Positions 4,541 to 45,085 of a DNA stretch of 64,000 nucleotides are shown in pieces; within the stretch, counting starts at the first letter, position 1; each line of letters begins with the position of its first letter. The DNA comes from Leucoraja erinacea (Eukaryota). Below the pieces are notes generated by a model that was given only the letters and a program-made list of their open reading frames with translations, was not told the origin of the DNA and ran no database searches. The position numbers and the translations under genes are program-made. The stretch covers positions 21,886,001-21,950,000 of the forward strand of contig NC_073379.1 of NCBI RefSeq assembly GCF_028641065.1, read 5' to 3'.

Positions 4541-4687
4541 GTTGGAGAATATCAGTCTGAAGAAGGGTCTCGACCCAAAACGTCACCCATTCATTTGCTC
4601 CATAGATGCTGCCTCACCCGCTGAGTTTCTCCAGATTTTCGTCCTTCGTACCTTCGATTTTTCCAGCATCTGCAGTTCTCTCTTAAA
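4541..4687 (+). mobile_element. Short Penelope-derived insert carrying a hammerhead-like motif
   Basis: CTGAAGA-A-GGGTCTCGACCC-AAAACGTC; 15-bp TSD CATCTCCAACAAGAG at 4526-4540 and 4688-4702. Confidence 0.75.
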
Positions 4688-7738: not shown

Positions 7739-10700
7739 TTTCTGTTGATGTTTATCAAAATCTGCAAAATAAGAAATTTAAAAATAATTAATCCCTATTT
7801 TCTGCTCTTTTAAAATAATCTACTTCCCTAGCTTAGTCTCCCCAGCCTTTAAATTTTCAGAACTTAGAACAAATATTCTCAAATAACACACTCAGTTCAG
7901 AGAAAAGGAAATAAGAACTGCAAACAAAAACAAAAATTAAAATAGAAAAGCATGTCAATTTTATATTTCACACGGTTATAGAATTATGAGCTCTTTTAGA
8001 AAGGATAGTAAGAAACATTTTTTTCCCCCAGAGCAGAGGTGTCGATAATTAGAGGCCATAGGCTCATGTTAAGGGACATGATATTTAGAGGGTATCAATG
8101 GAAGAGATGGGAATGGTATGCATGGACTCCTCTGCTGCAAGACAAACATTCAAACCTCAAAACTGAAACATTCTATCCCAGGCAGCATCCAAGTAAATCT
8201 CCTTTACACCATTTCCAATGCAATCAAGATTTAAAGAGTTTATTGTCATGTGTCCCTGATAGGACAATTAAATTATTGCTTTGCTTCAGCACAACAGAAC
8301 ATAGTAGGCATGACTACAGAAGAGATCAGTGTGGCCATATACCATTATATAAATATATATACACATGAATAAATAAACTGATAAAGTGCAAATAAACAGA
8401 TAATGGGTTATTAATGTTCAGAGTTTTGTCCGAACCAAAGTTAATAGCCTGATGGCTGAGGGGAAGTAGCTATTCCTGACCCTGGTTGTTGCAGTTTTCA
8501 GGCTCCTGTACCTTCTACCTGAAGGTAGCGGGGAGATGAGTGTATGGCCAGGATGGTGTGGGTCCTTGATGATACTGCTAGCCTTTTTGAGACAGCGACT
8601 GCGATAGATCCCCTCGATGGAAGGGAGGTCAGAGCCGATGATGGACTGGGCAGTGTTTACTACTTTTTGTAGTAATCATGTCCTTCCGATCCTGTGCCAA
8701 CCGGAACTGCACACAATACTCCATTGGTGGCTTAACCAAAGATTTATGACATGCACGTTTCTACCAGTAATCACTCTTTGAAGGGATATCCTTGGACAAA
8801 TAGTCAAAAACTAAAAGTTACAGTGTGCGAGTGAGAGGGGAAAGACAAAAGTGTTGGGAGGAGATTTTCAAATTTGTCCCTGGGCTGCCAAAGGCATATA
8901 TACCACTGGGTGTATGTAACGAGCTGCCATGGGGGTAGTTGAGCCAGGGACTATTGCAATGTTTAAGAAACAATTAACCAGGTACATGAATAGGGCAGGT
9001 TTGCAGAGATGTGGGCCAAACGCAGGCATGCGGGACTAGTGTAGATGGGACAAGTTAACGGATATGGGCAAGTTGGGCCAAAGGGCCTGTTTCCATGCTG
9101 TATGACTATGACTCTCATCTTGAAAGCTATGCCATAGAGTTTTTCAACTACTTCCTCCGGCAGCTCATTCCATACACCTACCACCCTTTACATGAAAAAG
9201 TGACTCCTCAGATTGCTATAAAATCTTTCCCCTCTCACTTTAAACCTATGTCGTCTGGTTCTCGATTACCCTACTATGGGTAAGAGACTCTGTGCGTCTA
9301 CTCAATCTATTCCTCTCATGATTTTATACACCCTTCATCCTCCTACACTCCAAGGAATAGCCCGAGCCTGCCAAGCCTCTCCCTATAGCTCAGGTCCTCG
9401 AGTCCTGGCAACATCCTCATAAATCTTAGCCAAACCCTTTCCAGCTTGACAACATCTTTCCTATAAAATGATGCCCAAACCTGAACACAATACTCTAAAT
9501 GCAGCCTCACCAACGTCTTATACAACTGCAACACGACCTCCCAACCTCTATGCTCTGTCTGATAAAGGCCAATATGCAAAAAGCCTTTTTGACTACCCTA
9601 TCTACCTGTGATGCCACTTTCAACTAACTATATACCTATAATCCTAGGAGTACAATGGCGGTATATGGGTTATGTGCAGGCAGATAAGAGTTGTCTTGGC
9701 ATCATGTTCGGCCCAGTGATTATGGGCCAAAAAGTCTGTTCTTGTGCAATACTGTTCTATGTTCAACAGAAAATATTTGTATGGTTAGCAATAACATTTA
9801 ACAAAAGGATTCACCATTGAGCTGAAAATAAAATTCAGAGTAACTGTTGAATTGAAAGATGCAGGATGGAAATAGGTCCCTCGGTCCACCGAATCGACAC
9901 CAACCATCACTAGTTCATACTAGTTCTATGTTATTCCAATTTCTCATCCACTCCTGACACACTAGGGGCAATTTACACAGGCCAATCAACTTACATACCA
10001 TCTTAAAGAAGCACATAGGATTGCTGCTGAGGATTATTATTGAAAATATGCTATGTCCTATAATCTTTTAGTTCTCTATGCGCCTCTATCTGACCTTTCA
10101 AAGGAGAACCTTTGCAACTGACTCCACAGAATAACTCACGCACAACTCTCGTAACCTGGGTTCAATCCAGACCTCTGGTGATTGTAGTTTATACATTTTT
10201 GCTGTGGGTGTGCGGGCTTCCTCATGGTGTACTGGTTTGTCCCATATCCCAAAGATGCAATTTCACTGACACCAGTGATGTCAATGGCAAGGAACTGCAG
10301 ATACTGGGTTATACCAAAGATGGACACAATGTTGGAGTAACTCAGCAGATCAGGCAGCATCTCTGGAGAGAAGGAATGGTGTTTTTTTCAGACTGAGTCA
10401 GAGAAGGGGAAAACTGGAGATATGGAAGGGTACAAAGTGAATGTAAGGTGTGAAAAGAACAGATCAAAGCAGACGACGATCTAGGAAATGTATTGTTGGC
10501 CGAGAGGAAGGTGACAACCAGGTATACAAACAGTAAAAATAATCAGGAAGACAGTGAAACTGGGAAGAGAACTAGGATGGAGGAGGGACAGAGGGAGAGG
10601 TGATGTAGGGAGGGTTACTTGAAGTTAAAGAAACCATGTCATATCGCTGGGTTGTAAACTGAAATGAAATACGAGGTACCGTTCCTCCAATTTGCGTTTG

Positions 10701-10999
10701 GCCTCACTCGTTCGCCGGCATTGACGCCGCCAACCGTTCAACCTTATGATAACGGCGAGACCACACGGAAATCTGTCACGTCCGTGGGTGGGTTTGCACC
10801 AAAATGACGGGACCGAGCAACACCAGGGATATTGATGTGAATGAGTCTGCACTCTCCATCTACCCTTCTGAGTGTGCACCTGACGACATGCCTCTGTCTC
10901 TGCGTCTGTCTCCTTGTCCCCAAGTGTATGGACACACAATTACTCAAAGTGCTGGAGTGATTCAGCAGGTTATTCAGCATCTCTGGAGAGCGTGGATCT

Positions 11000-14850: not shown

Positions 14851-17819
14851 TGGGGCGAATGGCCTATAAAGGTGCATTCAAGTCTTCCTGGCTCTTATAC
14901 TCGATGCCCAGACCTTTAAAAGCAAGCATAACATCTGCCTTGGTTTCATCACTATACCTGGGTTGGCACCTTCATGGAGTAATGGACTTGGGACCCAAGA
15001 TCCCTCTGTACATCAATGCTGCTGTCAAAGAACTTACCATTAATTGTATATTTTCCCCCTGCATTCGACCTTCCAAAGTGCAACACCTCACATTTGCTCG
15101 GATTAAACTCCCATCTGCCATTTCTCCACCCGTTTCGGTAGCTGATCATTATCCCACTGTACATTTTTGTCAGCATTTTTCACAATTCTCAACCCCGACA
15201 ATATTGGTGCCGTTTGCAAACTTTCTAACTAACCCATCCACGTTAAGACCTTCAGCCGAATTATTCCCCTTCCACCACATTATTATGATGCCCTACTGAA
15301 ATAATCAAAGGTATTTTTTTTAATAGTCACATTCACATACTAGGACCAGAGGACATAGCCTCAGAATAAAAGGACGCGCCTTTAGAAAAGAGATGAGGAG
15401 GAATTTATTTTGGCAGAGGGTGGTGAATCTGTGGAATCCATTGCCACAGACAGCTGTGGAGCCCAGGAGTAGTGAAGTGAAATGCTTTTTGCCATTTTGC
15501 AGCACACACAAAAAGAATACAGACATAACACCAATGGGAGTCTTAAACACATAGAACATCCCCCCACAATGGCTCCCACCATGAGGGAAGGCACAAAGTC
15601 CAGTCCCCAACCCCAGTTCACCCATGGTCGGGCCTATTGAGGCCTCCACAGTTGCCTCTACGGAGGCCCGATGTTCCTGGCCGTTCTCGCCGGGTGATGT
15701 TGCTCCGGCATCGGAAGAGTCCTCCCAGCGGCCTGGGAACCCTGGAACGGCCGCTGGGACTATTGAATGTGACAAAGACACTCTATATTGGCAATGCCTG
15801 CATAGACTTCTTGCAGTAAGTAAAACATTTTTCCATACGGTTGGCAATCATTTTTCCAAGGAAGCTTACCTTAAATGTTACAAATAAATGTTACCAATCG
15901 ACTCAGCACGATGAATTACATCAACTACAATTGTTTGCAACAGGGTATTGTGAAAGTCTGCTGAAATAAGGTGATTGAATGTGACGCAGCTACTGCCTAT
16001 TGGAAATGCCTAAACTGCTTGGACCGAGTAGAACGCTTTTCCATACGGTATAGCAATAACTTTTCCTTGGAAGGTTGTACACCAAATCAGCCATGATCAC
16101 ATTGAATGGCGGTGGTGTCTTGAAGGGCCGAATGGCCTACTACTGCACCTATTGTCTATTGTCTAAATAAATAATACCATTTGATTAAGGATCATGAATG
16201 ACATCAAGTAAACATGTTTGCAACAGATTATTGTGAAGGTCTGATTAAATAAAGGCAATTGAATGTGAAATATTACACTGTATGGGGAAATACCTAACTG
16301 CTTGCACTAAATAGAAAACTTTTCCATACAGTTGGCAATAACTTTTTCTAGGAAGGTTGTACTATACAAGTTACAATTCAATTCGGAACCATGAATTACA
16401 CCAGGCAGGTAAGTTGCAGAGTTTTTTGTGAAAGTCTGCTGAAATAAAGGCAATTGAATGTGACATAGCTTCACAGTTTTGGAAATGGCTGACTAGACTG
16501 CTTGCACTAAGTAGAAAATGTTTCCATACGGCAGGCAATAACCATACAACCAAATACATGTTAGGAGTCGAATACGCAGCATGGGCGACATCAAATAGAC
16601 ATGTTTGCAAGAGGTAGATGCAAAATGCTAGAGTAACTCAGGCAGCATCTCTGGAAAAAAGGAATAGGTGACGTTTTGGGTCGCCACCCTTCATCAGACT
16701 GAGAGGGAAACTAGAGGTATGAAAAGGTACATGAATAGGTCAGAGGCGGCACCGATGACCAAAGAGCCCATAATGGTCCTTTGTTGGCTGCGGAAGAGGT
16801 GATAATGAGGGGACATGAGCAGTTAAATTAGCAGGACAACTAGGACGGGGGAGGGACTGAGAGAGCGTGAATGCAATCAGAGAAATCAATATTCACACCA
16901 CTGGGTTGTAAGCTACCCAAGCGAAATATGAGGTGCTGTTCCTCCAATTTGAGTGTGGCATCTAGAAGGGTTTCGGCCCGAAACGTTGCCTATTTCCTTC
17001 GCTCCATAGATGCTGCTGCACCCGCTGAGTTTCTCCAGCTTTTTTGTGTAACCTTCGATTCTCCAGCATCTGCAGTTCCCTCTTAAAAACTGAGGGTGGC
17101 ATCTCTCTGTGGAGGAGGCCCAGGACAGAAAGGTCACTATAGAAAAGGGAAAGGAAGTTAAAAAAAAGCAACAGGGAGATGGCGTAGGCCAAGGCGGACT
17201 GAGCATCTACTGGATCCGTTGTTCCAAGTGTGGACTCCTATATATTGTTGAGACTAAGGGCAGAATGGTGTACAATCAAATAAATGTTACAATCCATTCT
17301 GCACCATGCATTACATCAACTAAACTTGTTTGCAAGAGGTTATTTAGAAGGTCTAATGAAATAAAGCCAATTGCATGTGGTATAGCTACTTTGTATTGCT
17401 ATGACTAACCAGTCTGCATGCACTAAGTGTAGACAAGGATAGACAAAGGAGAGTCGGTGGATGTGCTTTACCTAGATTTTCATGCCTTTAATAAGGTGCT
17501 GCACGTGAGGCAGCTAAAGAAGATGAGAGCCCGTGGTATGAGAGGGAAGGTACTAGTATGGATAGCAGGTTGGCTGAATGGCAGAAGGCAAAGATTGGCA
17601 ATAAAGGGGGCTTTTTCCTTGTTGGCTGCCAGTTACTAGTGGTGTTCTGCAAGGGTTAGTGTTGGTTCAGCTACTCTTCACATTGTCTATCAATAATTTG
17701 AAATATAACAGCTTTGGAAACACTGACTTACTCTGTTTACAGCAAGCAGCGTTCACTTCCATGAATCTTCCAATAACTTTTCAGGGCAATGTGCTGCAAT
17801 CAAATAAACGACTCCATAT

Positions 17820-18580
17820 AACCATATTAACAATTACAGCACGGAAACAGGCCATCTCGACCCTTCTATTCCGTGCCGAACACGTATTCTCCCCTAGTCC
17901 CATATACCTGCGCTCAGACCATAACCCTCCATTCCTTTCCCGTCCATATAACTATCCAATTTATTTTTAAATGATAAAAACGAACCTGCCTCCACCACCT
18001 TCACTGGAAGCTCATTCCACACAGCCACCACTCTCTGAGTAAAGAAGTTCCCCCTCATGTTACCCCTAAACTTCTGTCCCTTAATTCTCAAGTCATATCC
18101 CCTTGTTTGAATCTTCCCTACTCTCAGTGGGAAAAGCTTATCCACGTCAACTCAGTCTATCCCTTTCATCATTTTAAAGACCTCTATCAAGTCCCCCTTA
18201 ACCTTCTGCGCTCCAAAGAATAAAGCCCTAACTTGTTCAACCTTTCTCTGTAACTTAGTTGCTGAAACCCAGGCAACATTCTAGTAAAAAGGTACACAAA
18301 TTTGCTGAAGAAACTCAGCGGGTGCAGCAGCATCTATGGAGCGAAGGAAATAGGCGACGTTTTGGGCCGAAACCCTTCTTCAGACTGTTGCATCATCAAC
18401 ACGTCAGTCTGAAGAAGGGTTTTGGCCCAAAACGCCGTCTATTTCCTTCGCTCCATAGATGCTGCTGCACCCGCTGAGTTTCTCCAGCAATTTTGTGTAC
18501 CTTCGATCTTCCAGCATCTGCAGTTCCTTCTTGAACACAACATTCTAGTAAATCTCCTCTGTACTCTCTCTATTTTGTTG
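17820..18580 (-). mobile_element. CR1 3' fragment with a nested hammerhead insert
   Basis: ORF 17894-18145(-) has TRGYDLRIKGQKFRGNMRGNFFTQRVVAVWNELP. Confidence 0.8.
18289..18537. mobile_element. Inverted-dimer Penelope-derived hammerhead unit
   Basis: Two oppositely oriented CTGAAGAAGGGTTT(C/T)GGCCCAAAACG units; 15-bp TSD CAACATTCTAGTAAA (18274-18288 / 18538-18552). Confidence 0.8.
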
Positions 18581-19825: not shown

Positions 19826-19919
19826 AAGTCTGAAGAAGGGTTTCTGCCCGAAACGTTGCCTATTTCCTTCGCTCCATAGATGCTGCTGCACCCGCTGAGT
19901 TTCTCCAGCATTTTTGTGT
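19826..19919 (+). mobile_element. 94-bp Penelope-derived hammerhead insert in the satellite
   Basis: CTGAAGAAGGGTTTCTGCCCGAAACG; 11-bp TSD ACACTCACTTC (19815-19825 / 19920-19930). Confidence 0.75.
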
Positions 19920-22390: not shown

Positions 22391-23844
22391 TCGAAACACT
22401 GAATGAGTCTATTTTCAGCAGGCAGCATTAATTTCTATGAATCCTGCAATAAATTTACAAGTTGCTACTATAACTAAATGCCACCAATCGATTCAGCCTC
22501 ATGAGATACATTAAAAATGTTGGTTTACAACATGGTATGACTAACTATTTAGTTAGCAGTTGATATATGGAAAATATCTCTTGAGCGTTGGAAACGCTGA
22601 ATGAATCTCTTTGCAGAAAGCAGCATTCACTTCCATGAATTTAGTAGTGACTTTTCAAGGCAAGGTGCGACAATCAAAGAAATGACTCCAATCGATTCAC
22701 CTTCATTTGATACATTAGAAAAGTTTGTTTTCAACAGGTTATTACTAACTATATAACTTTAATATATCTCTAACTAGAGGTCTAAATATGGAACATAACT
22801 ACAGTTTTGGAAACACTAAATAAGTCTGTTTGCAGTAAACAACATTCACTTCCATAAATCTTGCAATAACTTTTCAGGGCAAGGTAGTACAATCAAATAA
22901 ATTAATCCAATTGATTCAACTTCATGAGATACATTAAATAAGTGAGTTTACATCATGTAAACTGCAACACCTCTCCCTTTTCTGTAATAAATTCTATTAA
23001 CCATTCCTCAGCCCATCCGATCAAGATCTTGCTGTAATTTTTGACAACCATTTTTATTATCTACATTTCCACCCACTTTTGTGCCATCAGCAAACTTGCT
23101 GATCATGCCTTGTACGTTCTCATCCAAATAATTGGTATAGAAGACAAGCAGTAATGGGCCCAACATTGAACCGTGAGGAACACCACTAGTCACAGGCCCC
23201 TGAAAAGCAACCTTCCACCATTCCTTCCATTAAGCCAATTTTCTATCCATTCAGCTAACTCTGTTTTGATCCCATGCGATCTAACCTTTCGGGACAGCCA
23301 ACCATGCAGAACTTTTTTGAATGCTTGTACTTGTATATGGCTTGATTGAACGCATGTATGGTGTGATTAGATGTAAACAAAGCTATTCACTGTATCTTGC
23401 CATACCTGACAGCTATAAACCAATGTCAATATGTATTACGAAGACTGCCTTCTACACCGCCACCGCCCCTCTCGATCCCCTACGATACTGAGCCTACGTA
23501 TGAAGCCCCACATTTTATTTACCCATTCTTCAGGACCTTGGCATCATCACAAAGCCTGGCAAATATTGTCCCTTCCTTATTGCTCTCCAAGAGGGAATTG
23601 CTAGTCAGTCATATGGTATTTAACAGTCAACAGCATTGGTGTAGAAACAAAGAACTGTAGATTGTGGTTTATACCAGATATAGACACAGTGTAGGAGTAA
23701 CTCACTGGGTTAGGCGGCATCTCTCAAGAAAAAGAAGAGATGACGTTTCAGGTTGGGACATTTCTTCTTTCTCCAGAGATGCTGCCTGATGTGTTAAATT
23801 ATTCCGGCACGTTGTGCCTTTCAACAGCATTGAGTAGGTTTGGA

Positions 23845-23898
23845 GGGTTGGGAGATTGCAACCTTCACGTGGTCCACCCTGTTTCAATGAATGCAATC
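23845..23898 (+). ncRNA. HDV/CPEB3-like ribozyme fold (copy 2; catalytic C mutated to T)
   Basis: GGGTTGG-GA-GATTGCA-ACC-TTCACGT-GGT-CCACCCT-G-TTTCAA-T-GAA-TGCAATC; perfect P2 and P3, L3 identical to the CPEB3 loop as recalled. Confidence 0.75.
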
Positions 23899-23983
23899 AG
23901 CCTGGTGTGCACAATCAAATAAGATCAAATAGAACAAGTTGTCCTACAACTTTAGTCTGTGCACGCCATACGCAAGAAGAAGA
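23845..23983 (+). mobile_element. HDV-ribozyme-headed retroposon, copy 2
   Basis: 13-bp TSD AGTAGGTTTGGAG (23833-23845 / 23984-23996); tail GCCATACGCAAGAAGAAGAA. Confidence 0.85.
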
Positions 23984-24580
23984 AGTAGGTTTGGAGACAC
24001 AAGAACCTCTGCCCGGGTTCATAAGTTCTAGGAGCAGACTTAAGCCATTCAGCCCATCAAGTCTACTACTCCATCATTAAATCATGGCTGATCTATCTTT
24101 CCCTCTCAACCCCATTCTTTCGTCTTTTCCTCATAACCTCTGACACTCATACTAATAAAAAATCTGTCAGTCCACCTTAAAAATATCCATTGACTTGGCC
24201 TCCACAGCCTTTTGTGGCAATGAATCACCACCCTATGACTAAATAAATTCTACCCCATTAGGTAATGCTGGGCAGATGTCCTCTACTGAAGGTGTTAAGT
24301 GAACCAGATGGATTTTACAACAAACATTTCTTGAAGTTATCAATGCTGTTGACTAGTAAATTCAAGTTAATTAACTGAATGCAAATTTTGCAGCTGCTGT
24401 GGTGTAAGTCAGATTCAGTTCTCTATTTTAGTCCAGGCCACTGTATTACCATTTCCATAAGGCACCAGCGCACGACTACCTTTTGTGGGCAGGGACTTCC
24501 CAAATCAGTGCTAGCACTAAAGATAGACACAAAATACTGGAGTAACTCAGCGGGTCAGGCAGCATCTCTGGAGAAAAGGA

Positions 24581-24620
24581 ATAGGTGACGTTTCGGGTCG
24601 AGACCCTTCATCAGACTGAG
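24581..24620 (-). ncRNA. Minimal type I hammerhead ribozyme motif (Penelope pLTR-type), best-preserved copy
   Basis: Minus strand reads CTGATGA-A-GGGTC-TC-GACCC-GAAA-CG-TC^ACC. It is part of an inverted arrangement spanning 24520-24895. Confidence 0.65.
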
Positions 24621-25506
24621 AGTCAGGGAGGGGGGAGCTAGAGGTATGGAGGAGGTAACTTCACATACCTCATTTCCCCCTCCCTGACTCTCAGTCTGAT
24701 GAAGGGTCTCGACCCAAAACAGGTTCTGTACCTTCCCATACCTCTAGTTTCACCCTCCCTGACCATGTCTAATGAAGGCTCTCGATCTGAAACGTTTCAC
24801 CTTTTCATTTTCTCCTTTTGCTTGACCGGCTGAGTTACTCCAGCATTTTGTGTCTATCTTCAGTATAAACCAGCATCTGTGGTTCCTTCTTACACAGTGG
24901 TAGAACTTCCCGCTTTGGTACTGATGCAGTTCTAGGTTGAGCAAATTCCCTCATTGTCATGATGTGACACATAAAACATGGAACAGTGCAGCACAGTACA
25001 CACATAATGTCCAATAACGGACTTGAGTAGTTAAACTAATTCCCTCTGCCTGCACGTATTTCACATTCTTCCATTCCCTGCATATCCTTGTGCCTATGTG
25101 AAAACTTCACAAACGCCACTATATGCCTCAACCACCACCCTTGGCAATGTGTTCCAGGCACTCACCACCCTCTGCGGTGTTAAAAAAAACTTGCCCTGTA
25201 CATCACGTTTGAACTTTGCCCCTTTCATCTGTTACATGAGCTCATTGTGAAATTTATAAATCTATAAACAATTCCTCCACAGACAGTTAATTCCTTTAGG
25301 TATTAGTCCGTGAGTCATTACATTTCAGGAAGTTCCCTGCGCTTGCATGAACTTCCCCCACATTTAACCTCAAATTTAAAACTAGTTTTGCTAGTTTCCA
25401 AACAAGTATGTAACATACAAGGAATTTCATTGGCCAGGTCAGTCATACAATTAAAAGCAACAGATCACTCAAAAACACATTTTAACATGAACATCAACCA
25501 CAGTGA

Positions 25507-25693
25507 AGGGCCTGTCCCACTTGGGCGTAATTTGCGCGTCACGACACACAACGCGTGCATTACACGTGCATGGTGTGTGGTGACGTAAGCAGTGACGTGC
25601 GGTCACGCGTGCTGCCCCAGGATTTTGGGATGTACAAAATCTTTGCGCGACATCTGCGTAACGCGCAAATGACGCCCAAGTGGGACAGGCCCT
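25507..25693. mobile_element. PIF/Harbinger-type MITE nested in a GC-rich repeat
   Basis: TIR AGGGCCTGTCCCACTTGGGCG / CGCCCAAGTGGGACAGGCCCT; 3-bp TSD TGA. Confidence 0.85.
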
Positions 25694-27081
25694 TGACTCC
25701 TCACATTCCTCACTGTGATGGAAGGCGAAATAAAGTTCAAGTCCTTCCCTTAGTTCTTCCTCGGTCGTGGGCCTCGAGCCCCCATTGACGGGACGATCTT
25801 GACTCCCATAGCCGGCGGCGTTCGGGCCCTCCACATCGAGGCAATCAGCTCCCGCATCGGGGGGATGTCAGCTCCCCGCGCCGGGCGATCAAACCTCGCC
25901 TCAAGACTGGTCGAACCTTCCGCAACGTTGGAGCTTCCCGACTAGCCTCTCCCAACTGAGATGGTAAAGTCTGCGGTGGCCGCGGTGGGAGTGATCCCAG
26001 GCAAGGGATCAGCTCCGATGTTAAGTCCACACCCCACGATAGGGCTCAAAGTCAGTCGGAGGAGGCTTCCAGCTCCATCGATGGTAGGCCGCAGAGCGCC
26101 CGGAGAATGTGATCCGAAAATTAATCACAACTCCGGCAAGGTAAGAACTTGAAAAAAAGTTTCCCCCGATCCCCTCCCTCTCCCCCCCACATAAAACAAA
26201 CCGAAGAACATTAAAACAAACTTTTAACACACTAAAAAATAACAAGAAGAATGAAAAAACAAACAGACTGCCGGCAAGGCAGCCATCGCCCCGGCACCCC
26301 TGATGAATAGATATTAGGTGAATCGAGGACCAAGTAAGTGACTCTGGGACCAGATGACATAGGTTTAAGGTGAAGGGGAAAAGATTTAATAGGAATCTGA
26401 GGGGTAACCTTTTCACACAAAGGGTGGTGGATGTATGGAATGAGCTGCCAGAGGAGGTAGTTGAGGCTGAGTCTATTGCAATGTTTAAGAAACAGACAGG
26501 TACATGGATAGGACAGGATTGGAGGGATTTGGACCAAACTCAGGCAGGTGGGAATAGTGTAGCTGGGACATGTTGGCCGATGTGGGCAAGTTGGCCGAAG
26601 GGCCTGTTTCTACACTGTATCACTCTATGACTCAACAACTTTCAGAAAAAATAAGCAGATGGTGACCACAGCAATTATGTTGCCAGAAGCTGAAATCTCC
26701 AGGTTACAATTAGTTGACCGAGGTGAACTAGACGTGGACTAAAAGCCCTAGCTCTGTTGCATCCTTCCTATCTTTATTCACAGAGCAAAGCACAAAATGC
26801 AGGAGGAACTCAGCGGGTCAGACAGCATCTGTGGAGGGATGGACAGACGATGTTTCGGGGCTGTAAAGACAAGGAACTGCAGATGCTGGTTTACAAAAAG
26901 AAGCCACAAAGTGCTGAAGTAATAATGCGGGTCAGGCAGCATCCCTGCGGTGCATGGATATGTGGCATTTCGGGCCAGGACCCGTCATCAAACAGCCTAT
27001 TCAGAAGTCCCAATCCCAAATGTCACATATTCACGTTCTCCAGAGATGCTGCTTCCGCTGAATTACTCCAGCGCTTTGTGA

Positions 27082-27119
27082 CAAAGATCCTATAGCAAAG
27101 CTTTGCTATAGGATCTTTG
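27082..27119. mobile_element. 38-bp perfectly palindromic hAT-type micro-MITE
   Basis: CAAAGATCCTATAGCAAAGCTTTGCTATAGGATCTTTG flanked by 8-bp TSD CTTTGTGA. Confidence 0.75.
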
Positions 27120-27137
27120 CTTTGTGATGTTTGGCAG

Positions 27138-27161
27138 CAAAGATCTTAGAGCGGATCTTTG
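27138..27161. mobile_element. 24-bp hAT-type micro-MITE
   Basis: CAAAGATC-TTAGAGCG-GATCTTTG flanked by 8-bp TSD TTTGGCAG. Confidence 0.75.
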
Positions 27162-28584
27162 TTTGGCAGGGCGGGGATTGCACGCAGCTCAGCTTCCTGG
27201 AGCCCGCGGAGAACGGAATTCCCCTCTGGGGATTCGGCCAAAGTGCCCGAGTCACAGCACACGCGTCTGATTCTGCTTTCCAACGCCAAGCGATAATAGA
27301 CGGGAATCTGCTGACCAAACTTAACACGTCCACGTCTCCTGATAACGCGGAATGCCATTATCCCCATTACCTTAATATTTTGCCCTGAGGGGTGGACTGT
27401 GGGCGTCCATGTTATGTATACCCCTCATGATTTTATAAACCTCCATTAGGTCACCCCTCAGCCTCCCATGTAGAAAACCCCAGCCTATCTATCCAGTCTC
27501 CAATGACACAAAAATGCCCTTCCTCCAACATTCACTATCTTCCGAGGGATTCTCCCCACGACACCAAGTTCCACAGAACAAAGTGAGCGAATATTACCGG
27601 GGATATGTTTCTCCATTCCTCTGCTAACGCTTGTTGGCCTCGTGTCTTTGAAGAATATTATTCCCTGGGAGTTGCCGAGGGGACAGATGAAATGGGGATC
27701 ACATTGACTCTCGGTCTGGCTAGATGACGATACCATACGATAGAACTTTATTTATCCCAGGAGGGAAATTGATCTGCCAACAGTCATTAAAACACAAGAT
27801 ACACGAAACATGAAATTAAAGTGACGATTGGAAAGGCTTGGGGGATGTGCAAAGATTGGAAGGGGGGGGGGGGGGGGGGGTCAGTCTCAGTCTACCCCAC
27901 GACATAAGGGGGAGGAGATGTAAAGTTTGATAGCCACAGGGAAGAAGGATCTTCCACTCGGATTTACCACTCGTGGGAGATAGGGTATATTTCCCATCAG
28001 AAGGGGTAGATAGCTGAGGCGAGCTAGTCTGAAGAAGGGTTTCGACACAAAAACGTCACCCATTCTTTCTCTCCAGAGATGCTGCCTGACCCGCTCAGAT
28101 ACTCTGGCATTTTGTGTCTATAGACGGCCAGATTACCCCGTCGAGCCGAAAGAAGTATAAAATTATGAGAGGCATAAATAGAGTCTGAACTTTGTTTCCC
28201 CAGTCGGGTAATGTCAATTGGATGCGGTGTGGGGGGTGGGGGGTAAACAGATGTGCAGGGCGAGATTTTGTTTTGTTTTTGCAAAGAGAGTGGTGCGTGC
28301 GTTGAAGGGGTGGTGGTGAAGCCAAATACGATATTGACAATGAAGGGGCTTTTAGATGGCACATGAATATACAGGGAATGGTGTGATATGAATCACGTGC
28401 GGACAGAGTAGTTTCCGTTATCTTGGTATCTTGAATGGGACAGGTATCAGAGGTTAAGGGGAGAAAGCAGGATAATGGGGTTAGGAGGGAGAGATAGATG
28501 GGCCGAATGGCCTAAGTACCCTTATTCCTCATGACTTTATGTATCATTTTCAGAGCAGACATTGTGGGCCGAAGGTCACTGTCC

Positions 28585-30415
28585 CCTCTGCCCTTCTGAT
28601 GGATATCATTGCAATAGCCGGTCCCAGCATCCTCGCCATCATCAACAATTCTCTGGCCACTGGCACTGTTCCTACCTGCTTCAAGCATGCGGTGGTCCAG
28701 CCTCTCCTGAAAAAACCTAACCTAGACCCCACCTTGCCCAGCAACTACAGACCTATTTCCAAACTGCATTTTTTTCAAAAAGTCCTTGAAAAGACAATTT
28801 TGTCAACATGCCTTATCTTCACCAAAATACCATCCTTGAAACTTTCCAATCAGGTTTCAGGGCCCACCACAGCACAGAGTCTACCTTGTTGAAGGTACAT
28901 AATGAACTACTTCCCACCATTGACTCCGGCTCCTTATCGACCTCAGCACAGCATTTGATAAAGTGGACCACACCATCCTAATTGGCCTTCTCCGGTACGG
29001 GATTGGTATTGATGGCATTGCCCTGAGCTGGTTCGTCTCCTACCTCAAAGATAGGAGTTTCTGTACAAACATAGGCAACTCTTTCTCCTCCCTAGCTAGC
29101 CTTTGCTGTGGGGTTCCACAAGGCTCCATCCTAGGCCCCATTCTCTTCTCTCTGTATATGTTCCCCTTCGGCCAAGTCATTCAAAGGCACAGCATTTCTT
29201 TCCACTGCTATGCAGACGATACCCAACTCTATCTCCCCCTGAAGCCCAACAACCGTTCTAATCTACTCAGCCTTATCCACTGCCTCGAGGATATAAAGTG
29301 TTGGATGGCTCAGAACTTCCTCCAACTAAACGAGAGTAAGTCTGAGGTCATCCTACTCGGCCCCTCTGACTCAATCAAAACGATAGCAGGCAGCCTTGGA
29401 AGCCTTACCCCATTACTCAAACCTCATGTCGAAAACCTTGGCGTGGTATTTGACTCCGTGATGAAATTTGACAAACAAGTCAATGCTGTGGTAAAAGCTA
29501 GCTTCTTCCAGCTTTCGACGATAGCTAAAATAAAACAATTTCTCCAATTTGATGACCTCAAAAAGATCATGGAATCTCTGGAATTCTCTGCCACAGAAGG
29601 TAGTTGCAGCCAGTTCATTGGCTATATTTAAGAGGGAGTTAGATGTGGCCCTTGTGGCTAAATGGATCAGGGGGTATGGAGAGAAGGCAGGTACAGGATA
29701 CTGAGTTGGATGATCAGCCATGATCATATTGAATGGTGGTACAGGCTCGAAGGGCCGAATGGCCTACTCCTGCACCTATTTTCTATGTTTCTATGTTTGT
29801 ATCATCCTCACATTTATCTCCTCCCACCTTGATTACTGCAATTCCCATTACACTGGCATCAGCCAATCTTCCCTGCAATGGTCCAAAACGCCGCAGCAAA
29901 ACTCCTGACGGGCACCCGAAAAAGGGACCACATCACACCGATTCTGGCCTCTCTCCACTGGCTCCCTGTGCGGTTCCGAATCAATTTCAAGCTCCTTCTA
30001 TGTAAACAAAGCCCTCAACGGGCTTGCCCCCACCTACATGAAAAATCTGCTAACCCACCACACCACCTCCAGGTCCCTCAGATCGGCCGACTTGGGGTTA
30101 CTGTCCATCCCAGGTCCAGACATAAGCTCAGGGCGACCGCGCTTTTGCGGTTGCAGCTCCTAAATTACGGAACAGCATCCCTCTTCCCATCAGAACTGCC
30201 CCCTCCATCGACTCTTTTAAGTCTAGACTTAAAACTTATTTCTACTCTCAAGCCTTTCTTGAGGTCCTCTTAGGGAGCGGTGTATGTATGTATCTATGTA
30301 TGTATTGTTGATCCATGTACCGCTGTTTGTAGCACGTTAGTGTCTGCACCAATGTAAAGCACTTTGGTCAACGAGAGTTGTTTTAAACGTGCTATGGAAA
30401 TAAAATTGACTTGAC
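28585..30415 (+). mobile_element. L2-clade LINE, 5'-truncated and frameshifted RT, with a CR1 fragment inserted at ~29569-29797
   Basis: NYRPISKL, GVPQGSILGPILF, YADDTQLY, WMAQNFLQLN and QNAAAKLL..HITPILASLHWLPV motifs. Confidence 0.88.
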
Positions 30416-30754
30416 AGCTTGACCCGTTCTAGTGCTGTGCTGTTCTATGCTGAACACAACGTAACTCAGCGGGCCAGGCAGCATCTCTGGGCGACATGGA
30501 TAAGGTGACGTTTCGGGTCGGGACCCTTCCTCAGTCAGTACTGTTCTGTGTCCAATGAAAGTGACTGCACACCACCCCCTGGGTATTATAATATAACTAC
30601 AACGAGCCGCGGACCGGGAAGAGGCGCCGATCCTCCGCCAGTGGCGAATGTGGAGGGAGATTGTATCTAGGCGATCTCTGAGGAGAAGGCTCGGCACTCA
30701 CCTCCCTCCCTCCACCCTCGGCCCTCACCTCCAGCTCCCCCCCGGAACCAGTGC

Positions 30755-30848
30755 GGGGCGGAGCCTTCTATGGTTCCCCGAGATTTGGTACTGCTGGCGC
30801 GGAAAGTACAACAGTCTCACTTTCACTTCTGCGACTAAGGAGGAAGCG
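30755..30848 (+). promoter_or_regulatory. Proximal promoter/5'UTR of the Siglec-15-like gene: GC box, IRF-E/ISRE-like element, GAGGAA ETS core
   Basis: GGGGCGGAG at 30755-30763; CTCACTTTCACTTCT at 30816-30830 (reverse complement AGAAGTGAAAGTGAG); GAGGAAG at ~30840. Confidence 0.5.
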
Positions 30849-30899
30849 ATGCGTTTTTCTGCTCGATCCGGCCTTCGAGGCAGCGTGCCCGGCGTGAGG

Positions 30900-30957
30900 A
30901 TGGTGTCCCGCTCCCTCTTGGTCTTCTTGTTGCTGTTATCGGCGGTCGCTGTCTCCG
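30900..30957 (+). CDS. Siglec-15-like exon 1 (signal peptide)
   Basis: MVSRSLLVFLLLLSAVAVS with a phase-1 donor GTAATG; an alternative in-frame ATG lies at 30849. Confidence 0.85.
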
Positions 30958-32670
30958 GTAATGTCCCGTTCCCTTCTCTCCATCGCAGGCTAACGGCTGG
31001 GCTCGGTCCGGGTTAGGTCAACCGACCCACAAGACTAGGGGATCCTTGGCTAGCTACCTCTCTCTCTCTCTCTCTCTCAGACGCTCAACCATTTTACAAT
31101 CCTGTCATATCGTTTTCCATTTAGAGGACTGTACCGAGTTCAATGTATTAGTAAACGCTGCAAACTTTCGGCGGCTTAAAAAGTGTGCCATGGGTCTGAA
31201 GAAGGGTCTCTACCCGAAACCTCACCTATTCATGTTCTCCAGAGATGCTGTCTGGCCTGCTGAGTTATTCCAGCACTTGGTGTCTTTTTTAAGAATTGTT
31301 ATTGCTCCAGTGTCAGTCCCGTGGCAATTAAACACTGCATCACTCATCTCTTACTACCATCAGTCTGAACAAGGGCCCTGACCCGAAATGTCACCTATCC
31401 ACGTCTGCCAGCGATGCTGCCTGAACCGCTGAGTTATACTACTTTAAACTCCTTTAAGATCTCACCTCACCGCGTTTCCTGTTCCTTCTGAGACAGGAAG
31501 GTAGACAGCGAGAAATTATGTATCCTCTGGCTTTGGAGAGGTGAAAAAGTAAGTTCAGTTGAGAAACAAGAATTCCAAAATTATGCATTGAAGGGATCAG
31601 ACAGTCAGAACGTGTTTTTTTCCCCCAGGGTGGAAATATCAAAGACTAGAGGTGAGAGGAGCAAAGTTTAAAGGAGATGTGTGGGGCAAGTTTTTTTTTA
31701 TACTGAGGGTGATGAGTGCCTGGATCACACTGCTGGGGGTGGTGGTGGAGGTAGATGCGGTAGTGGTGGTTAAGATACTTTTTTTTTTGACAGGATAGAC
31801 ACATGGAGAGGCAGGGAGTGGAGGGATATGAATGATGTGCAGACAGAGGAGATTAATTTAACAGCAACATGTTCACCACAGACATTGTGAATATAAGGGT
31901 CCGTTTCTGTGCCCTTCTGTTCTCTGTTAAAAGTGTTGCAAAATTCGAAGTCTCTTCCCTCTGTCATCTCCCTCTGTATCTCTCTCTGCTTTTTGCTCAT
32001 TATTGTCTTCCCTTTATGTCTCTCTTTTCTTTCTCTCTCCCGCTGTCTCCCCGTCATTCTCTCGTTTTTTCTCTGTCTCTGTTTATCCCCCTGTTTCTGT
32101 TTTTTTGTTTCTTTCTCTCTCTCTCTCTGTTTCTTTCCCCCGCTGTGCTGAAATGGGGCTCAGTGGTGCTGTGCTGTTCCAGTGTTCTGTGTTCTAAGAT
32201 CTAAATGGTTTGTGAGGGGAATTATGGTGAGAGCCGGAGGGAAAATCCTTTCCTCAAGAGAGTCGCTGGCCGAATGATTTCAGTCCCCCCGGGTGGGCGG
32301 TGATGATGTGGATTGGAATTTGTGGGGGGTTCCCGCCTGTACATACCTTGTGATAACTGACTCCCAGTCATTCACCGGGGCTGGCTGATGAGTAAAGTGC
32401 ACTACATGTGGCGTCAGCTGTCCATCATGAGATCATCACAACTTCCCTTTGATTCATTCTTTCACTGTGTCGTTTATGACTCGTGTACAATGCGACAGCC
32501 CAGAAACAGACCCATTGACCTACCGAGTCCATGTTGTCCACATTGCCTATCTACACTCAATCCTTTGCCGCCGAGAACAAACAGGGTCAACCGGGACTCT
32601 AATTAGTACTTTGTAACCTTGTTGGCACTGGATACGTGGTGACTATTTGCGCGCTATGTGTATTGTAGCA

Positions 32671-34196
32671 ATGTTACAAAATTTTGAGATAAAAAAAATC
32701 AAGTCTTTAAGTTATCCCATCAGATAAAGCATAAAAAGAAGTTTAATTTGACACCTAATTCACTTGCATATGGAGAGTCATGGAGAGTCATGGAGTGACA
32801 CAGTGTGGAAACGGCCCCTTCGGCCCAACTCGCCCACACCGGCCAACAATGTCCCAGCTACACTAGTCTCACTTCCCTGCGCTTAGTCCATAACCCCCCA
32901 AAACTGTCCTATCCATGTAATTGTGTAACTGTTTCTTAAACGATGGGATAGTCCCAGCCTCAACTACCTCATCTGGCAGCTTGTTCCATTCACCCACCAC
33001 TTTTGTGTGAAAAGGTTACCCCTCAGGTTCCTATTAAATCTTTTCCCCTTCACCTTGAACCTTGGTCCTCTGGTCTTCGATTCTCATACGCTGGGCAAAA
33101 GACTCTGTGCATCTATCCGATCTCTTCCTCTCACGATTTTGTATGTCTCTATAAGATCTCCCCTCATCCTCCTGCACTCCATGGAATAGAGACCCAGCCT
33201 CCTCAACCTCTCCCTATAGATCACACCCTCTCGTATATATATATATCTTCTGTATTAAAAAGGTTATGGCCATTTTCATACTCGGAAATAAGCATCTTGT
33301 TCCCTATTGATTTTCCATTGGCTTAACACAAAAGCTGTGATCGAGAACATTTAAAAGCCGATAACTTTCTTAAAATTTAAGAGAACTGAAAGAAATTTTC
33401 AGTTATTGTAGATTGATCCATTCTGAAACAAATATGAAACAATCTTACTTAGATGACTTGAAATTAAAGCATATAATTAGTTAGTTGCCTAATTGTAGCT
33501 AATTACAAAATTCAATTACTAGATCTAAACATCTATCCATTTCTTAAGAATAGATTAACATTTTTAAATAGCCTAAGTGTCCAAATAACATTCACACAAT
33601 AATTCAGAATATAACATAATTTTTAAATCTCATTGTCATGGGTTTATAGGCCAAATGGAAAGAATTTAATGTTTAATACCTGTAAATTAATGGCCATTTA
33701 AATCAGCTTGCGAGTAGGATTTTCTGGAACGGGACCATTTGGAACGTTCAGGATGCGGTGAATTTAGCCCCCATATCGGCAGCAAATACACTGCCAGTTC
33801 TTCGGGGAGAAAAATACCGTTTTGCAACATAAAATGTGAATTAAATACATCTTAAGAAACACTTTTATACATAAAAATAAACTACTTTCTTTTTACCTGG
33901 TCCTCCATAAAATCCGTCCCAGTTGTCGGCATTGATGGCTTCAGAAGCTGATTTTAAAATCATTCCAGCGATTAACTTGTCGGGTGAATTTTTTTTAAAA
34001 AACACACAGAATGGCTGTAGGAACAATTCTTTAGCAACATCTTGCACTCCAACAAAAATGTAATTCAGGACCAGGTCGGAAAAAAACCCCGTTTTAACCC
34101 CGCCCGTCCCCCCCCCCCCCCCCCTTAAACGCGCCCAAATCGCGCACACGGCCAGCGGCAGAATTGCAGCGCCGCTGAAGGTAAGTTTTGTAACAT
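32671..34196. mobile_element. Putative non-autonomous DNA transposon with short TIR, CR1 fragment nested at ~32772-33230
   Basis: ATGTTACAAAA ... TTTTGTAACAT termini; no clear TSD, superfamily not assigned. Confidence 0.45.
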
Positions 34197-34943
34197 ACCT
34201 ATGTATTGTATGCACAAACAAAGAATTTCACTGTACCTTGGTACATGTGACAATAATGCATCATTGATCTTGGTGCATTGGGCTCATACCGTTAAGATAA
34301 AGGGTGATTGTTTAGTTTAGTTTAGTGATACAGTGTGGAAACAGGCCCATTGGTCCACCAAGTCCAACTCCAACGAGCTATCAAAGGTACGCTAGTTTTA
34401 TCCCACATACTAGGGACAATTTACAGAAGGCAATTAACCTACAAGTCTTTTGAATATGCGAGAAACCTGGAGCACCCGGGAAAAACCCACGGGGTCACAG
34501 GTAGAATGTAAAAACTCCACACTGACAGCGTCCATACTCAGGATCAAACTTGCGCTGTAAGGCAGATCCTTCTTCAGACTTTGGCCCGCCAAGTCTGCGT
34601 CGACCCGCGATCACCCCGTACACTAGCACTATCCTACACACCAGGGGCAATTTACAATTTCACCAAAGTGGTACGTCTTTGGAGTGTGGGAGAAAACCGG
34701 AGCACATGGAGAATACCCACGCAGGTCACGGGTAAAACGTACAAACTTCATACAGACAGCACCCGTAGTCAGGATTGAACCCGGGTCTCTGGCACTGCCA
34801 TGCAGCAAATCTACCACCGACCCCTATGTCGCCACTGGCATTGTATTCTCTTTTGCGTTGGAGGCTTTTGATTTCCAGACGGATTTGATACAGTGATGTA
34901 GATTGTCGGATAGACCATTCTTTGACTCTCTCTCTTCCCGCAG

Positions 34944-35351
34944 GAGGCATGGGGGAGCCGGTGGCCGTGTTAGTGCATGTCCGGGACAGGGTGACCAGTA
35001 CTGTCGGAAGCTCCGTGGTATTGCCCTGCAATTTCAAATCCGACTACTCCGACTACACGACCATGGACATTACTGTCATCTGGAAGGTGAAGGTGTTTTA
35101 CACCGGCTCGGTTTTGTTCAACGTGACCAACAGGAGCAATGGCGGCAAGGACTTCGTGGACGAAGTTCACACAAATGTCAATGGCCGCTACAAACTGGCC
35201 GGGGACCCGAGGCAGAGGGTCGCCTCGCTGGAGGTGGAGAATGTTACACTGGGTGACAGCGATCAATACTTCTGCCGCGTCGAAATCAAACGCCAGGGAT
35301 TACGCGCGTTCATGCACGAGTCCAACCCTGGAGTCACCCTGGAAATTATAG
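34944..35351 (+). CDS. Siglec-15-like exon 2 (V-set Ig domain)
   Basis: Acceptor cccgcAG, donor GTAAAA, phase 1/1; VVLPCNF..IW..GRYKLAGDPR..ASLEVENVTLGDSDQYFCRVE with the F-strand Arg. Confidence 0.92.
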
Positions 35352-37513: not shown

Positions 37514-37897
37514 GCTCACCCATCATCCTCCGGGTATCTGTTAAAGCCATTAATACCACGCAGCCTATTGTGCAGTGCCTGGCAGAGGGACAACCCTTCC
37601 CGAAAATCATATGGATTGATCCCCAAAATAACAAGCTTCCTGCGAACAGCAGCGACACCTCAGTAACGTCGGGGCCGGGGAAGTATCAGATCTTGGGAGA
37701 ACTGCGTAACCCAAAGTTTGGGGGGACCTACACATGTGTGGTGGTCAGTGACCAAGGAAACAGCAGCCGATCTATCTATCTGCCCAGCAAGGGGCAAGTC
37801 CGGCATCTGCTGCTTTACATCATTGGGATCCTAGTTGGAAGTGTCATTCTGGTTATCCTGGTTGTTATTCTCTTACTGATGCAGAGGAGAAAGAGAG
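37514..37897 (+). CDS. Siglec-15-like exon 3 (C2-set Ig domain plus transmembrane helix)
   Basis: Acceptor ttcccAG, donor GTGAGT, phase 1/1; PIILRVSV..CLAEGQPFP.I.W..GTYTC..G.S..SIYL followed by a hydrophobic TM and RRKR. Confidence 0.92.
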
Positions 37898-38834
37898 GTG
37901 AGTTTCTTTGTGAGGGAAGAGGGAGGAAGTGGGGGGGGTCACTGGTGGAGTAGATAAATGTTATCAAGTTATATTGCATTTATTACAAAGATACATTTTA
38001 GATGCCACATAAGGTTTAGAAAGGAGAAAATCTCACAACCCCAAGTTACTGTAGTAGTTGAAGTCAAAGTGAAGGTGTGCATCTCTATGTTTATGTTCTG
38101 TGATTAAGGTGAGAGGGGGGGGGTGGGGAGGCTTAATAGGAACGTGAGGGGCAACTTATTCATGCAGAGGGGCATTCGGACAAGTACATTAATGACATTT
38201 AAAAGACACTACAAGGATAGGATAGGTTTAAAGAGGTATATGCCAAATGCGGGCAAATGGACATGTTATGTTGGAGCTTCTTAGTCAGCTTGGATGAGTT
38301 GGGCCGAAGGGCCTGTTTACATGCTGTATGATTCTTTGGTTGGAGGATGTGGAAAGAAGAGACTGGGGAGGAATAGACAAAATGGCGATTGGGAGGAGGA
38401 GATCCAGGGATGAGAGATGGGAGGGAGAGACCAAGTGAGGGCGCAGCGGTAGAGTTGCTGCCTCATAGCGCCAGAGACCCGGATTCAATCCTGACAACAG
38501 GTACTGTCTGTACAGAGTGTGTACGAACTCCCTGTGACTACATGGATTTCCTCCCACATTGCGATGACTTACAGGTTTGTAGGTTAATTGGCTTCTATAA
38601 ATTGTCCCTTGTGTGGAGGAGAGAACTTGTTTACGGGGATCGCTGGTCAGTGGCGACTATGTGGGCTGAAGGGCCTGTTTCCACTCTGTTGCTCTAAAGT
38701 AAACTAAGGAAAGGTCTTGGGATGGTTGGGAACAGAGGCATGAATGGGGATGAGAAATAGTTGACCACCAACAGGAAGAAAGGTGGAGATGAATGTGCAG
38801 GAGTTAGAGGGAGGAATTATCACTAGGTTTCTTA

Positions 38835-44430: not shown

Positions 44431-45085
44431 AGGCCCTGTCCCACTTAAGTGAAATTGGCAAGCAAATTACACGTTGAGGCACACGGGCAACGTATGGCTG
44501 CGCGGGGCCAGTCCCACTGAGAAGCGCAGAGTGGTATGGAGTTGTGCGCGGTATCGCGAGGCGCTCCGAAATTTTGTGGCAAACAAAATCTTCGCACGCC
44601 ACCGGCCTGATGTGTAACTAACGGCCAAAGTGGGACAGGCCCAAGACCCTGGGGGGATGCAACGTCTCACCTCCAACAGCAGCAGAAGCAGGCAAACGAT
44701 CATCGAACTCAGCCTGCGGCTCACGGCCGTTGCAGATCCGGATCCGCCCCCACTACTACTCCCAGAGCAGGGCCAAGAAAATTGAAGATAGACACAAAAT
44801 GCAGGAGTAACTCAGCAGGACCGGCAGCATCTCTGGAGAGAAGGAATGGGTGACGTTTCGGGTCAGACTGAAGAAGAGTTTCGACACGAAACATCACCCA
44901 TTGCTTTTCTCCAGAGATGCTGCCGGTCCCGCTGAGTTACTCCTGCATTATGTGTCCATCTTCAACTGACGTCATGCGCTCCAGACGGCTGTGTGGGCGC
45001 ATGAAGTCGCGCGGGGCTGTCACGCCTCAACGCGACCACAAGGTCATGTAATTAGCATGCCAAGGACACGTAAGTGGGACGGGAT
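44431..45085. mobile_element. Harbinger-type MITE with a nested inverted hammerhead unit (~44786-44965)
   Basis: AGGCCCTGTCCCACTT...AAGTGGGACGGGAT with TAA TSD; the right subterminal sequence matches 59640-59694. Confidence 0.75.

What the first reader, a model, noticed from the sequence alone, without database searches (positions are those of the whole stretch)
24520..24895. Abundant Penelope-derived mini-elements carrying a minimal hammerhead ribozyme
Seen: more than a dozen short inserts contain CTGA(A/T/G)GA-A-[GGGT..loop..(A/G)CCC]-GAAA-CG-TC (e.g. 4557, 11790, 12268, 16670-, 19830, 24581-, 28029, 30501-, 31196, 45488). The stem II loop varies while the GGGT/RCCC pairing is mostly kept. 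At 16615-16960 the unit lies downstream of a PLE ORF C-terminus (KLEEQHLIFRLGSLQPSG on the minus strand), and 10285-10710 shows the same layout with the core deleted. Known: Penelope-like elements carry minimal type I hammerheads with a tiny palindromic stem III in their pLTRs. Inference: these are non-autonomous retrozyme-like units, a second ribozyme-bearing mobile family in the same window. Caveat: stem I is only 2 bp unless the distal CTCAG/CTGAG pairing is used.
Basis: partly seen in the sequence, partly recalled or inferred. Interest (0 to 1): 0.7.

Follow-up and report, generated by a model that had tools for sequence, protein, structure and literature searches.

The report
Penelope retrotransposon stubs bearing minimal hammerheads
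These short repeats are the ribozyme-bearing end pieces of a very abundant Penelope-like jumping gene in a cartilaginous-fish genome, likely pasted in as short by-products copied from the uncut front end of the element's RNA rather than spreading as a separate ribozyme-driven element.

Summary
The motif is real. The window holds 34 family copies; 7 keep all core letters and 3 fit a full minimal-hammerhead descriptor. Genome-wide there are about 0.75 million copies and 60,645 exact intact motifs. The unit is the pLTR/5' leader of a GIY-YIG Penelope-like element with open RT-EN frames; the core lies 164 nt before the ORF start. This is the minimal PLE hammerhead of Cervera and De la Pena 2014. 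The retrozyme reading fails: the units are dispersed, 5' ends do not gather at the cut site, stubs share haplotypes with UTR-linked copies, and G12 decays like any CpG. In 61 of 100 young copies the 5' end lies 0-7 nt before the core, with excess G (18 of 32 at -2/-3), which suggests run-off cDNA from a capped, uncut RNA. Against this, 0 of 19 long copies stop there. The focal 377-bp insert is a TSD-flanked inverted plus partial-tandem insertion whose hairpin is predicted to lock its ribozyme. The scan has reported this family and this mechanism before, in this and other shark-type genomes.

The parts
24519..24895 (.). Focal insert: one composite PLE insertion (inverted arm plus partial tandem), 377 bp
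24507..24518 (+). Left target-site duplication (10 of 12 identical to the right one)
24896..24907 (+). Right target-site duplication
24520..24660 (-). Inverted arm: about 40 nt of pyrimidine-rich upstream UTR plus core, no tail; 2 of 91 differences from its subfamily majority
24585..24616 (-). Intact minimal hammerhead: C3 at 24614, extra A after A9, 4-bp helix II with tetraloop, palindromic 4-nt helix III, predicted cut between 24587 and 24586, 2-bp helix I
24664..24720 (+). Plus piece 1: UTR plus 5' part of the hammerhead (G12 to A), truncated; 98% identical to the inverted arm over 45 nt
24723..24862 (+). Plus piece 2: UTR plus degenerate core (G5 lost), about 80% to relatives
24863..24895 (+). 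Optional 30-35-nt PLE tail
   Evidence: PMC3846280 passages
16607..16962 (-). 5'-truncated PLE 3' end: EN C-terminus 16861-16962, UTR, core 16607-16701 (G12 lost)
16964..17086 (+). Inverted core plus tail of a different, young subfamily at the 5' end of that copy
10289..10710 (-). 5'-truncated PLE 3' end with helix II and GAAA box deleted
18283..18534 (.). Head-to-head pair of cores with a perfect 13-bp TSD
19827..19919 (+). Solo stub starting 3-4 nt before C3, intact motif, 11-bp TSD
30447..30536 (-). Solo stub, core letters intact but helix I 5' strand absent
31194..31292 (+). Solo stub, core intact, helix III palindrome lost
44779..44970 (.). Head-to-head core pair carried inside a TIR element (44430-45083)
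4553..4685 (+). Stub with tail, G12 lost (11787, 12265, 28026, 45487, 46767 and others are further copies; 34 in all)

Best explanation
The units are the hammerhead-bearing pLTR/5'-leader end of an autonomous GIY-YIG Penelope-like retrotransposon, and most are likely short, dead-on-arrival insertion products that the element's own protein copied from uncut RNA. Shown: the core lies about 100-250 nt after the ORF stop and 164 nt before the next ORF start; 3' ends fall at two sites either side of a 30-35-nt tail; 5' ends gather at the first letters of helix I; many inserts have TSDs or are joined head to head. Inferred: transcription starts at the A or G of an initiator-like TCAGT, 3 or 2 nt before C3; reverse transcription starts internally at the tail borders, as in Anolis PAc; it runs off the capped end after 95-135 nt, often adding a C opposite the cap; the cDNA is then joined by microhomology to the target or to a second cDNA. 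The ribozyme is under constraint in master lineages, would work only as a dimer or with the PLE protein, and decays neutrally in the stubs. Odds: identity as PLE ends about 0.9; run-off mechanism about 0.55.
For: Anatomy: 23 ORF-linked 3' ends; partial tandems with C3 163-167 nt before ATG in 19 of 30 loci; 68 scored RT matches with open frames of 662-1236 aa; RVT_1 and GIY-YIG hits just under Pfam cut-off; closest proteins from sharks and rays at 57-65%. Ratio in 800 kb: 274 cores, 22 ORF C-termini, 5 RT cores. 3' ends bimodal. 5' ends: 61 of 100 young copies end 0-7 nt before C3, 32 at -2/-3 (sample required an exact core); 135 of 274 unbiased copies start in model positions 1-12. G just before -2/-3 ends: 18 of 32, p=0.0006, vs 4 of 29 at other offsets; 16 of 30 without two slippage duplications, p=0.002; independent sample 7 of 11 solos, p=0.01. 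RNA reads leave the reference at -3, -2, -1 (563, 287, 158 reads in X24; these are passengers, not starts). Core invariant among 6 subfamily majorities (0 of 11 core columns vary; 27 of 91 overall), yet G12 mutated in 45 of 146 copies.
Against: 0 of 19 near-full-length copies that reach the upstream core stop at that point (vs 61 of 100, p=2e-7): a single capped RNA species predicts they should, so two RNA pools or an efficient template jump must be added. With inverted junctions included, the independent G test drops to 8 of 17, p=0.053. Of the 15 solo G cases I read by eye, 5 are untemplated, 5 lie in the target and 5 are ambiguous. 13 of 44 older solos keep the whole TCAGT. No TATA-like box is visible upstream in the young subfamily (by eye). 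Stubs are skewed to one older haplotype (9 vs 1; column p=0.014-0.018 uncorrected, 9 columns tested). No RNA 5' end was mapped (table 6 empty).
Confidence: 0.72

Rival explanations
1. Same identity, but the 5' pile-up is an ordinary truncation hot spot: RT stalls at the C-rich UTR, or integration is resolved at the TCAG-N-CTGA palindrome or at an endonuclease site in the pLTR, with no link to the RNA's 5' end.
For: The palindrome joins head-to-head pairs with 1-nt spacing. Long copies do not end at the presumed start (0 of 19). PAc cuts its own ORF-pLTR junction in vitro (PMC11167929).
Against: A sequence-intrinsic stall should act on the second pass too, yet 19 of 19 long copies read through. 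The G excess is confined to -2/-3.
Confidence: 0.17
2. The stubs are a SINE-like non-autonomous family with an internal promoter: each stub is transcribed from its own first base and is recopied in trans by the PLE protein.
For: Stubs outnumber RT-bearing copies about 55 to 1; they have their own TSDs; D. virilis Penelope has an internal promoter (PMC2377424 passages); pLTRs act in trans in Adineta (PMC3846280 passages); haplotype skew.
Against: The two commonest haplotypes are shared 16/13 and 11/10 between UTR-linked copies and stubs. Head-to-head junctions differ from locus to locus, except one carried by a DNA transposon. Bulk RNA reads over the core are strand-balanced (1296 vs 1288) and 95% run on into unlike sequence (library strandedness not stated).
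Confidence: 0.08
3. Retrozyme: the unit is cut out by its hammerhead, circularised and reinserted.
For: Type I hammerhead and PLE ancestry, as for animal retrozymes; one chondrichthyan genome has tandem retrozymes in Li et al. 2026. One long copy (L159) starts at the cut site and L023 holds a 66-nt tandem run of core pieces.
Against: No tandem array in the window; 4 of 185 tandem neighbours; no 5' excess at the cut site; 25 of 274 copies fit the descriptor; helix I predicted at P below 0.02; no joint at the cut site among those listed in three RNA runs.
Confidence: 0.03

Closest known systems
Minimal type I hammerheads in pLTRs of metazoan PLEs (Cervera and De la Pena 2014, PMC4209133; parts 1-2 of 4 read)
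   Same: Core boxes, extra nucleotide between A9 and 10.1, G10.1-C11.1, palindromic 15.2-16.2, pLTR location, most motifs dispersed as single truncated copies, opposite-strand pairs 100-700 bp apart; 2-bp helix I as in D. virilis Penelope.
   Different: Helix II is 4 bp (7-8 bp in Schistosoma). 60,645 exact motifs here vs about 4,000 (coelacanth) and 9,000 (Xenopus). No chondrichthyan is named in the parts read; the supplement was not read.
EN+ Penelope-like elements, Neptune/Nematis type (PMC8557442 passages; PMC3846280 passages)
   Same: RT plus C-terminal GIY-YIG, CX4CxxC linker, partial tandems forming pLTRs, inverted 5' copy, optional 30-40-bp tail, TSDs.
   Different: Stubs of 95-135 nt dominate and have a focused 5' end; the passages read do not describe this. 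Clade placement rests on the linker motif only.
Poseidon PAc of Anolis carolinensis (PMC11167929; parts 1-2 of 4 read)
   Same: Hammerhead near the ORF start; two 3' end sites bracketing the tail; uncut RNA as the insertion template.
   Different: In PAc the ORF begins at helix II; here the ATG lies 164 nt downstream. PAc cleavage was shown to need the protein; not tested here.
Animal non-LTR retrozymes (PMC7229834 passages; bioRxiv 10.64898/2026.07.22.740005 parts 1-3 of 5)
   Same: Type I hammerhead, PLE-related sequence, no coding capacity.
   Different: Retrozymes are 150-450-bp tandem repeats with canonical hammerheads that give circular RNA; these units are dispersed, minimal, and begin before the ribozyme rather than at its cut.

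Membership tests
EN+ Penelope-like element | RT plus C-terminal GIY-YIG endonuclease in one ORF linked to the unit | tested here: met
   (Pfam RVT_1 E 1e-6 and GIY-YIG E 3e-4, both just under cut-off; homologues carry both)
EN+ Penelope-like element | Partial-tandem pLTR, inverted 5' copy, optional 30-40-bp tail | tested here: met
Neptune/Nematis clades | CX2-5CxxC linker between RT and EN | tested here: met
   CX4CxxC in translated copies; definition from PMC8557442 passages
Neptune/Nematis clades | RT phylogeny with named references | not tested
   no named PLE reference set was held
Minimal PLE hammerhead | CUGANGA and GAAA boxes, UH site, extra nt after A9, G10.1-C11.1, palindromic helix III | tested here: met
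   all 6 subfamily majorities, the oldest after allowing for CpG decay; 60,645 exact motifs, control 0
Minimal PLE hammerhead | Two-sided covariation in helices | tested here: not met
   only U-A/U.G changes among 6 majorities; distant relatives not alignable
Minimal PLE hammerhead | Self-cleavage as dimer or with protein | not testable with these tools
   folding predicts weak helix I and a -3.1 to -5.7 kcal/mol helix III duplex
Rfam hammerhead families | Covariance-model match | tested here: not met
   no hammerhead family at E up to 1 in the window
Non-LTR retrozyme | Tandem repeats with a hammerhead in each unit | tested here: not met
   4 of 185 tandem neighbours
Non-LTR retrozyme | Unit ends at the cleavage site | tested here: not met
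   8 of 274 5' ends at positions 29-37, no more than neighbouring bins
Non-LTR retrozyme | Circular RNA | tested here: inconclusive
   three RNA runs (one oligo-dT bulk, two single-cell) list no joint at the cut site, but are unsuited to circles
SINE-like non-autonomous family | Own lineage distinct from the autonomous partner | tested here: inconclusive
   main haplotypes shared, mild skew, one subfamily only

The most novel reading that the evidence does not exclude
The several hundred thousand stubs are a genomic record of a Penelope 'strong-stop' DNA: RT starts inside the 5' leader of a capped RNA whose first 2-3 nucleotides are the 5' strand of hammerhead helix I, runs off the cap, and then either inserts, anneals to a second strong-stop DNA at the TCAG-N-CTGA palindrome (head-to-head pairs), or jumps to the 3' pLTR to regenerate the partial tandem. 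This would give PLEs a retrovirus-like first-strand transfer and would keep the leader ribozyme off by design.
Probability: 0.4. Interest if true: 0.65.

Novelty: new member of a known kind. Interest (0 to 1): 0.3.

Why it matters
The element class and its ribozyme are known, so the feature itself is ordinary. What it adds is scale and a test bed: about 28 intact motifs per Mb and cores covering 3.3% of sampled DNA, with young open-frame partners. How PLEs make pLTRs and inverted ends, and what their hammerhead does, are open questions; the stub ends name exact positions (-3/-2 start, two tail borders, uncut template) that one 5'-end mapping experiment and one in vitro RT assay can confirm or reject.

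Tried and rejected
Rfam scan: only miRNA-like hairpin hits at 24596-24714, caused by the inverted arms. Bare core pattern: not significant alone. Distal CTCAG/CTGAG helix I: predicted P below 0.01. Splice acceptor at CAG before the core: rejected for TSD-resolved stubs, since in most the TSD ends within 0-7 nt and no exon is carried. A shared palindrome junction at five loci first looked like a self-propagating family; it is a passenger of a TIR element. DNA search of the own genome with the 85-nt core returned nothing because its words are too common. Run search: no holder on record as RNA; raw reads of three same-species runs showed no sharp start or end on the leader; reads on 23500-38500 fell almost only on repeats, so nothing on transcription of the focal locus. 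Strand of the single-cell reads was not interpretable. Metagenome relatives (11 loci, best EN matches 30-39%): two have CUGAUGA..GAAA after the EN but could not be aligned. Paper searches: Penelope with skate/shark/elasmobranch terms gave nothing relevant among 25 listed of 1,306; 'skate genome' + 'transposable elements' + 'Penelope' gave 0; searches listed no paper on cap run-off stubs by title or abstract. The first solo class (90) held 10 copies with an older UTR; corrected to 80; the TSD count was not redone.

Full report
Observation. All ten cited sites are copies of one repeat. A profile built from 23 ORF-linked copies finds 34 copies in the window and 275 in 80 evenly spaced 10-kb stretches, with 0 in the reversed control. 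That extrapolates to 0.62-0.88 million copies, and cores cover 3.3% of the sample (sample drawn from contigs C1-C33). An exact degenerate motif for the intact ribozyme occurs 60,645 times in G000, control 0. The bare core pattern alone is not above chance in the window and Rfam has no hammerhead hit. Only 7 of 34 window copies keep all core letters and 3 fit a descriptor with helices I and II; in the sample 25 of 274 do.

What it belongs to. The peptide at 16861-16962(-) has 63,309 first-look candidates in G000. Extended copies encode a GIY-YIG domain behind a CX4CxxC linker; the closest proteins are from sharks and rays at 57-65%, so the host is likely a cartilaginous fish. An RT query gives 68 scored matches with open frames of 662-1236 aa. 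In 19 of 30 loci holding the ORF start, the order is: end of an upstream copy, about 100 nt of pyrimidine-rich UTR, hammerhead, core, tail, then ATG 163-167 nt after C3; two of the 19 look like duplicates. The short unit is therefore both the 3' end of the element and the 5' leader of the next ORF, the pLTR arrangement described for EN+ PLEs (PMC8557442 and PMC3846280, passages). In 800 kb there are 274 cores, 22 ORF C-termini and 5 RT cores.

The ribozyme. It has the features that Cervera and De la Pena list for minimal PLE hammerheads (PMC4209133, parts 1-2 of 4): both boxes, an extra nucleotide after A9, G10.1-C11.1, a palindromic 4-nt helix III that can close only in a dimer, and a 2-bp helix I as in D. 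virilis. Six subfamilies, 5-21% from their own majority, differ at 27 of 91 columns but at none of 11 core columns; changes in the motif are in loop II, at N17, and U-A/U.G swaps. Other blocks downstream are as invariant, so the core is not uniquely conserved, and no two-sided covariation was seen. Single copies decay: G12, in a CpG, is mutated in 45 of 146; non-CpG stem II 10.3%, rest 10.0%, non-CpG core 6.1% (the lower core figure may reflect A-richness, ascertainment or unresolved subfamilies). Folding predicts helix I at P below 0.02 and the distal pairing below 0.01. Activity was not tested.

Ends of the stubs. 3' ends are bimodal, at the core end and the tail end, matching the two internal RT starts reported for Anolis PAc, where uncut RNA is the main template (PMC11167929, parts 1-2 of 4). 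TSDs flank 14 of 90 copies first classed solo vs 3 of 435 shuffled pairs. Of 274 sampled copies, 135 start in model positions 1-12, 50 extend into the UTR, and 8 start near the cut site. Among 100 consecutive young copies on C1, chosen for an exact 38-nt core, 34 extend into the UTR, 61 end 0-7 nt before C3, and 32 end at -2 or -3. The base before those ends is G in 18 of 32 (p=0.0006) vs 4 of 29 elsewhere; 16 of 30 after dropping two slippage duplications; an independent set gives 7 of 11 solos (p=0.01) but 8 of 17 with inverted junctions (p=0.053). I had proposed a start-site run-off before looking at earlier notes; the extra-G test came from note e1-8159767. That TCAGT resembles an initiator and that RTs add C opposite a cap are recalled, not from a call.

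Result against this reading. None of 19 long copies that reach the upstream core stops there (p=2e-7). Long copies must come from read-through RNA that starts further upstream, or the cDNA must jump efficiently on that pass. RNA reads leave the reference at -3, -2 and -1, but 95% of them run on into unlike sequence and are strand-balanced, so they reflect genomic stubs inside host transcripts and map no start.

The focal insert. 24519-24895 lies between 12-bp repeats identical at 10 positions. It holds an inverted arm with an intact motif, a truncated plus piece with G12 lost, and a degenerate plus copy with tail. All three carry 30-45 nt of UTR, so it is not itself a start-site stub. A transcript through it is predicted to fold into one hairpin (-219.6 kcal/mol, z=-19) that pairs the whole core; it is unlikely to cut host RNA.

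Retrozyme test. Animal retrozymes are tandem repeats giving circular RNA (PMC7229834 passages; bioRxiv 2026.07.22.740005 parts 1-3 of 5). Here there is no array in the window, 4 of 185 copies have a tandem neighbour, and stubs share their commonest haplotypes with UTR-linked copies. The only palindrome found repeated with the same junction is a passenger in a TIR element. Tandem derivatives exist elsewhere (66-nt run in L023). Supplements of the 2014 paper (not opened) and of the 2026 preprint (closed) may list chondrichthyan motifs.

Verdict. A new member of a known kind: stubs of a Neptune/Nematis-type PLE with the known minimal hammerhead. The scan has 110 notes fitting 'Penelope hammerhead' in this genome, several with the same mechanism; these are not independent evidence. 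Interest 0.3; 0.65 if the strong-stop model holds.

Noticed in passing
window 44430-45083; L044, L057, L111, L116: A 654-bp element with terminal inverted repeats and TAA-like flanks (PIF/Harbinger MITE-like; label recalled) carries a head-to-head pair of PLE cores as passenger; the same composite occurs at 4 of 80 sampled loci, about 10,000 copies if representative.
   Followed up: partly
window 34889-37953 (+): Exons for an Ig V-set domain, a second Ig domain and a likely transmembrane segment (Siglec/CD300-like layout, recalled); almost no reads in two RNA runs.
   Followed up: no
window 48647-54267 (+): Near-full-length LINE-1-type element: ORF1-like frame, endonuclease and RT frames broken by frameshifts.
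   Followed up: no
window 61867-62802 (-) and 58106-58516 (+): Tc1-type transposase frame of 311 aa, and a DDE_Tnp_4 (Harbinger-type) fragment.
   Followed up: no
window 45741-46369: Another very abundant 630-bp repeat, up to about 90 hits in the 800-kb sample.
   Followed up: no
   Followed up: no
L159: One long copy begins at the predicted cleavage site, 1 of 11 that start inside the leader.
   Followed up: no
window 16607-17086: The two arms of this inverted insertion come from different subfamilies, which fits two separate templates rather than fold-back.
   Followed up: partly
window 40665-40795: Run of 131 N.
   Followed up: no
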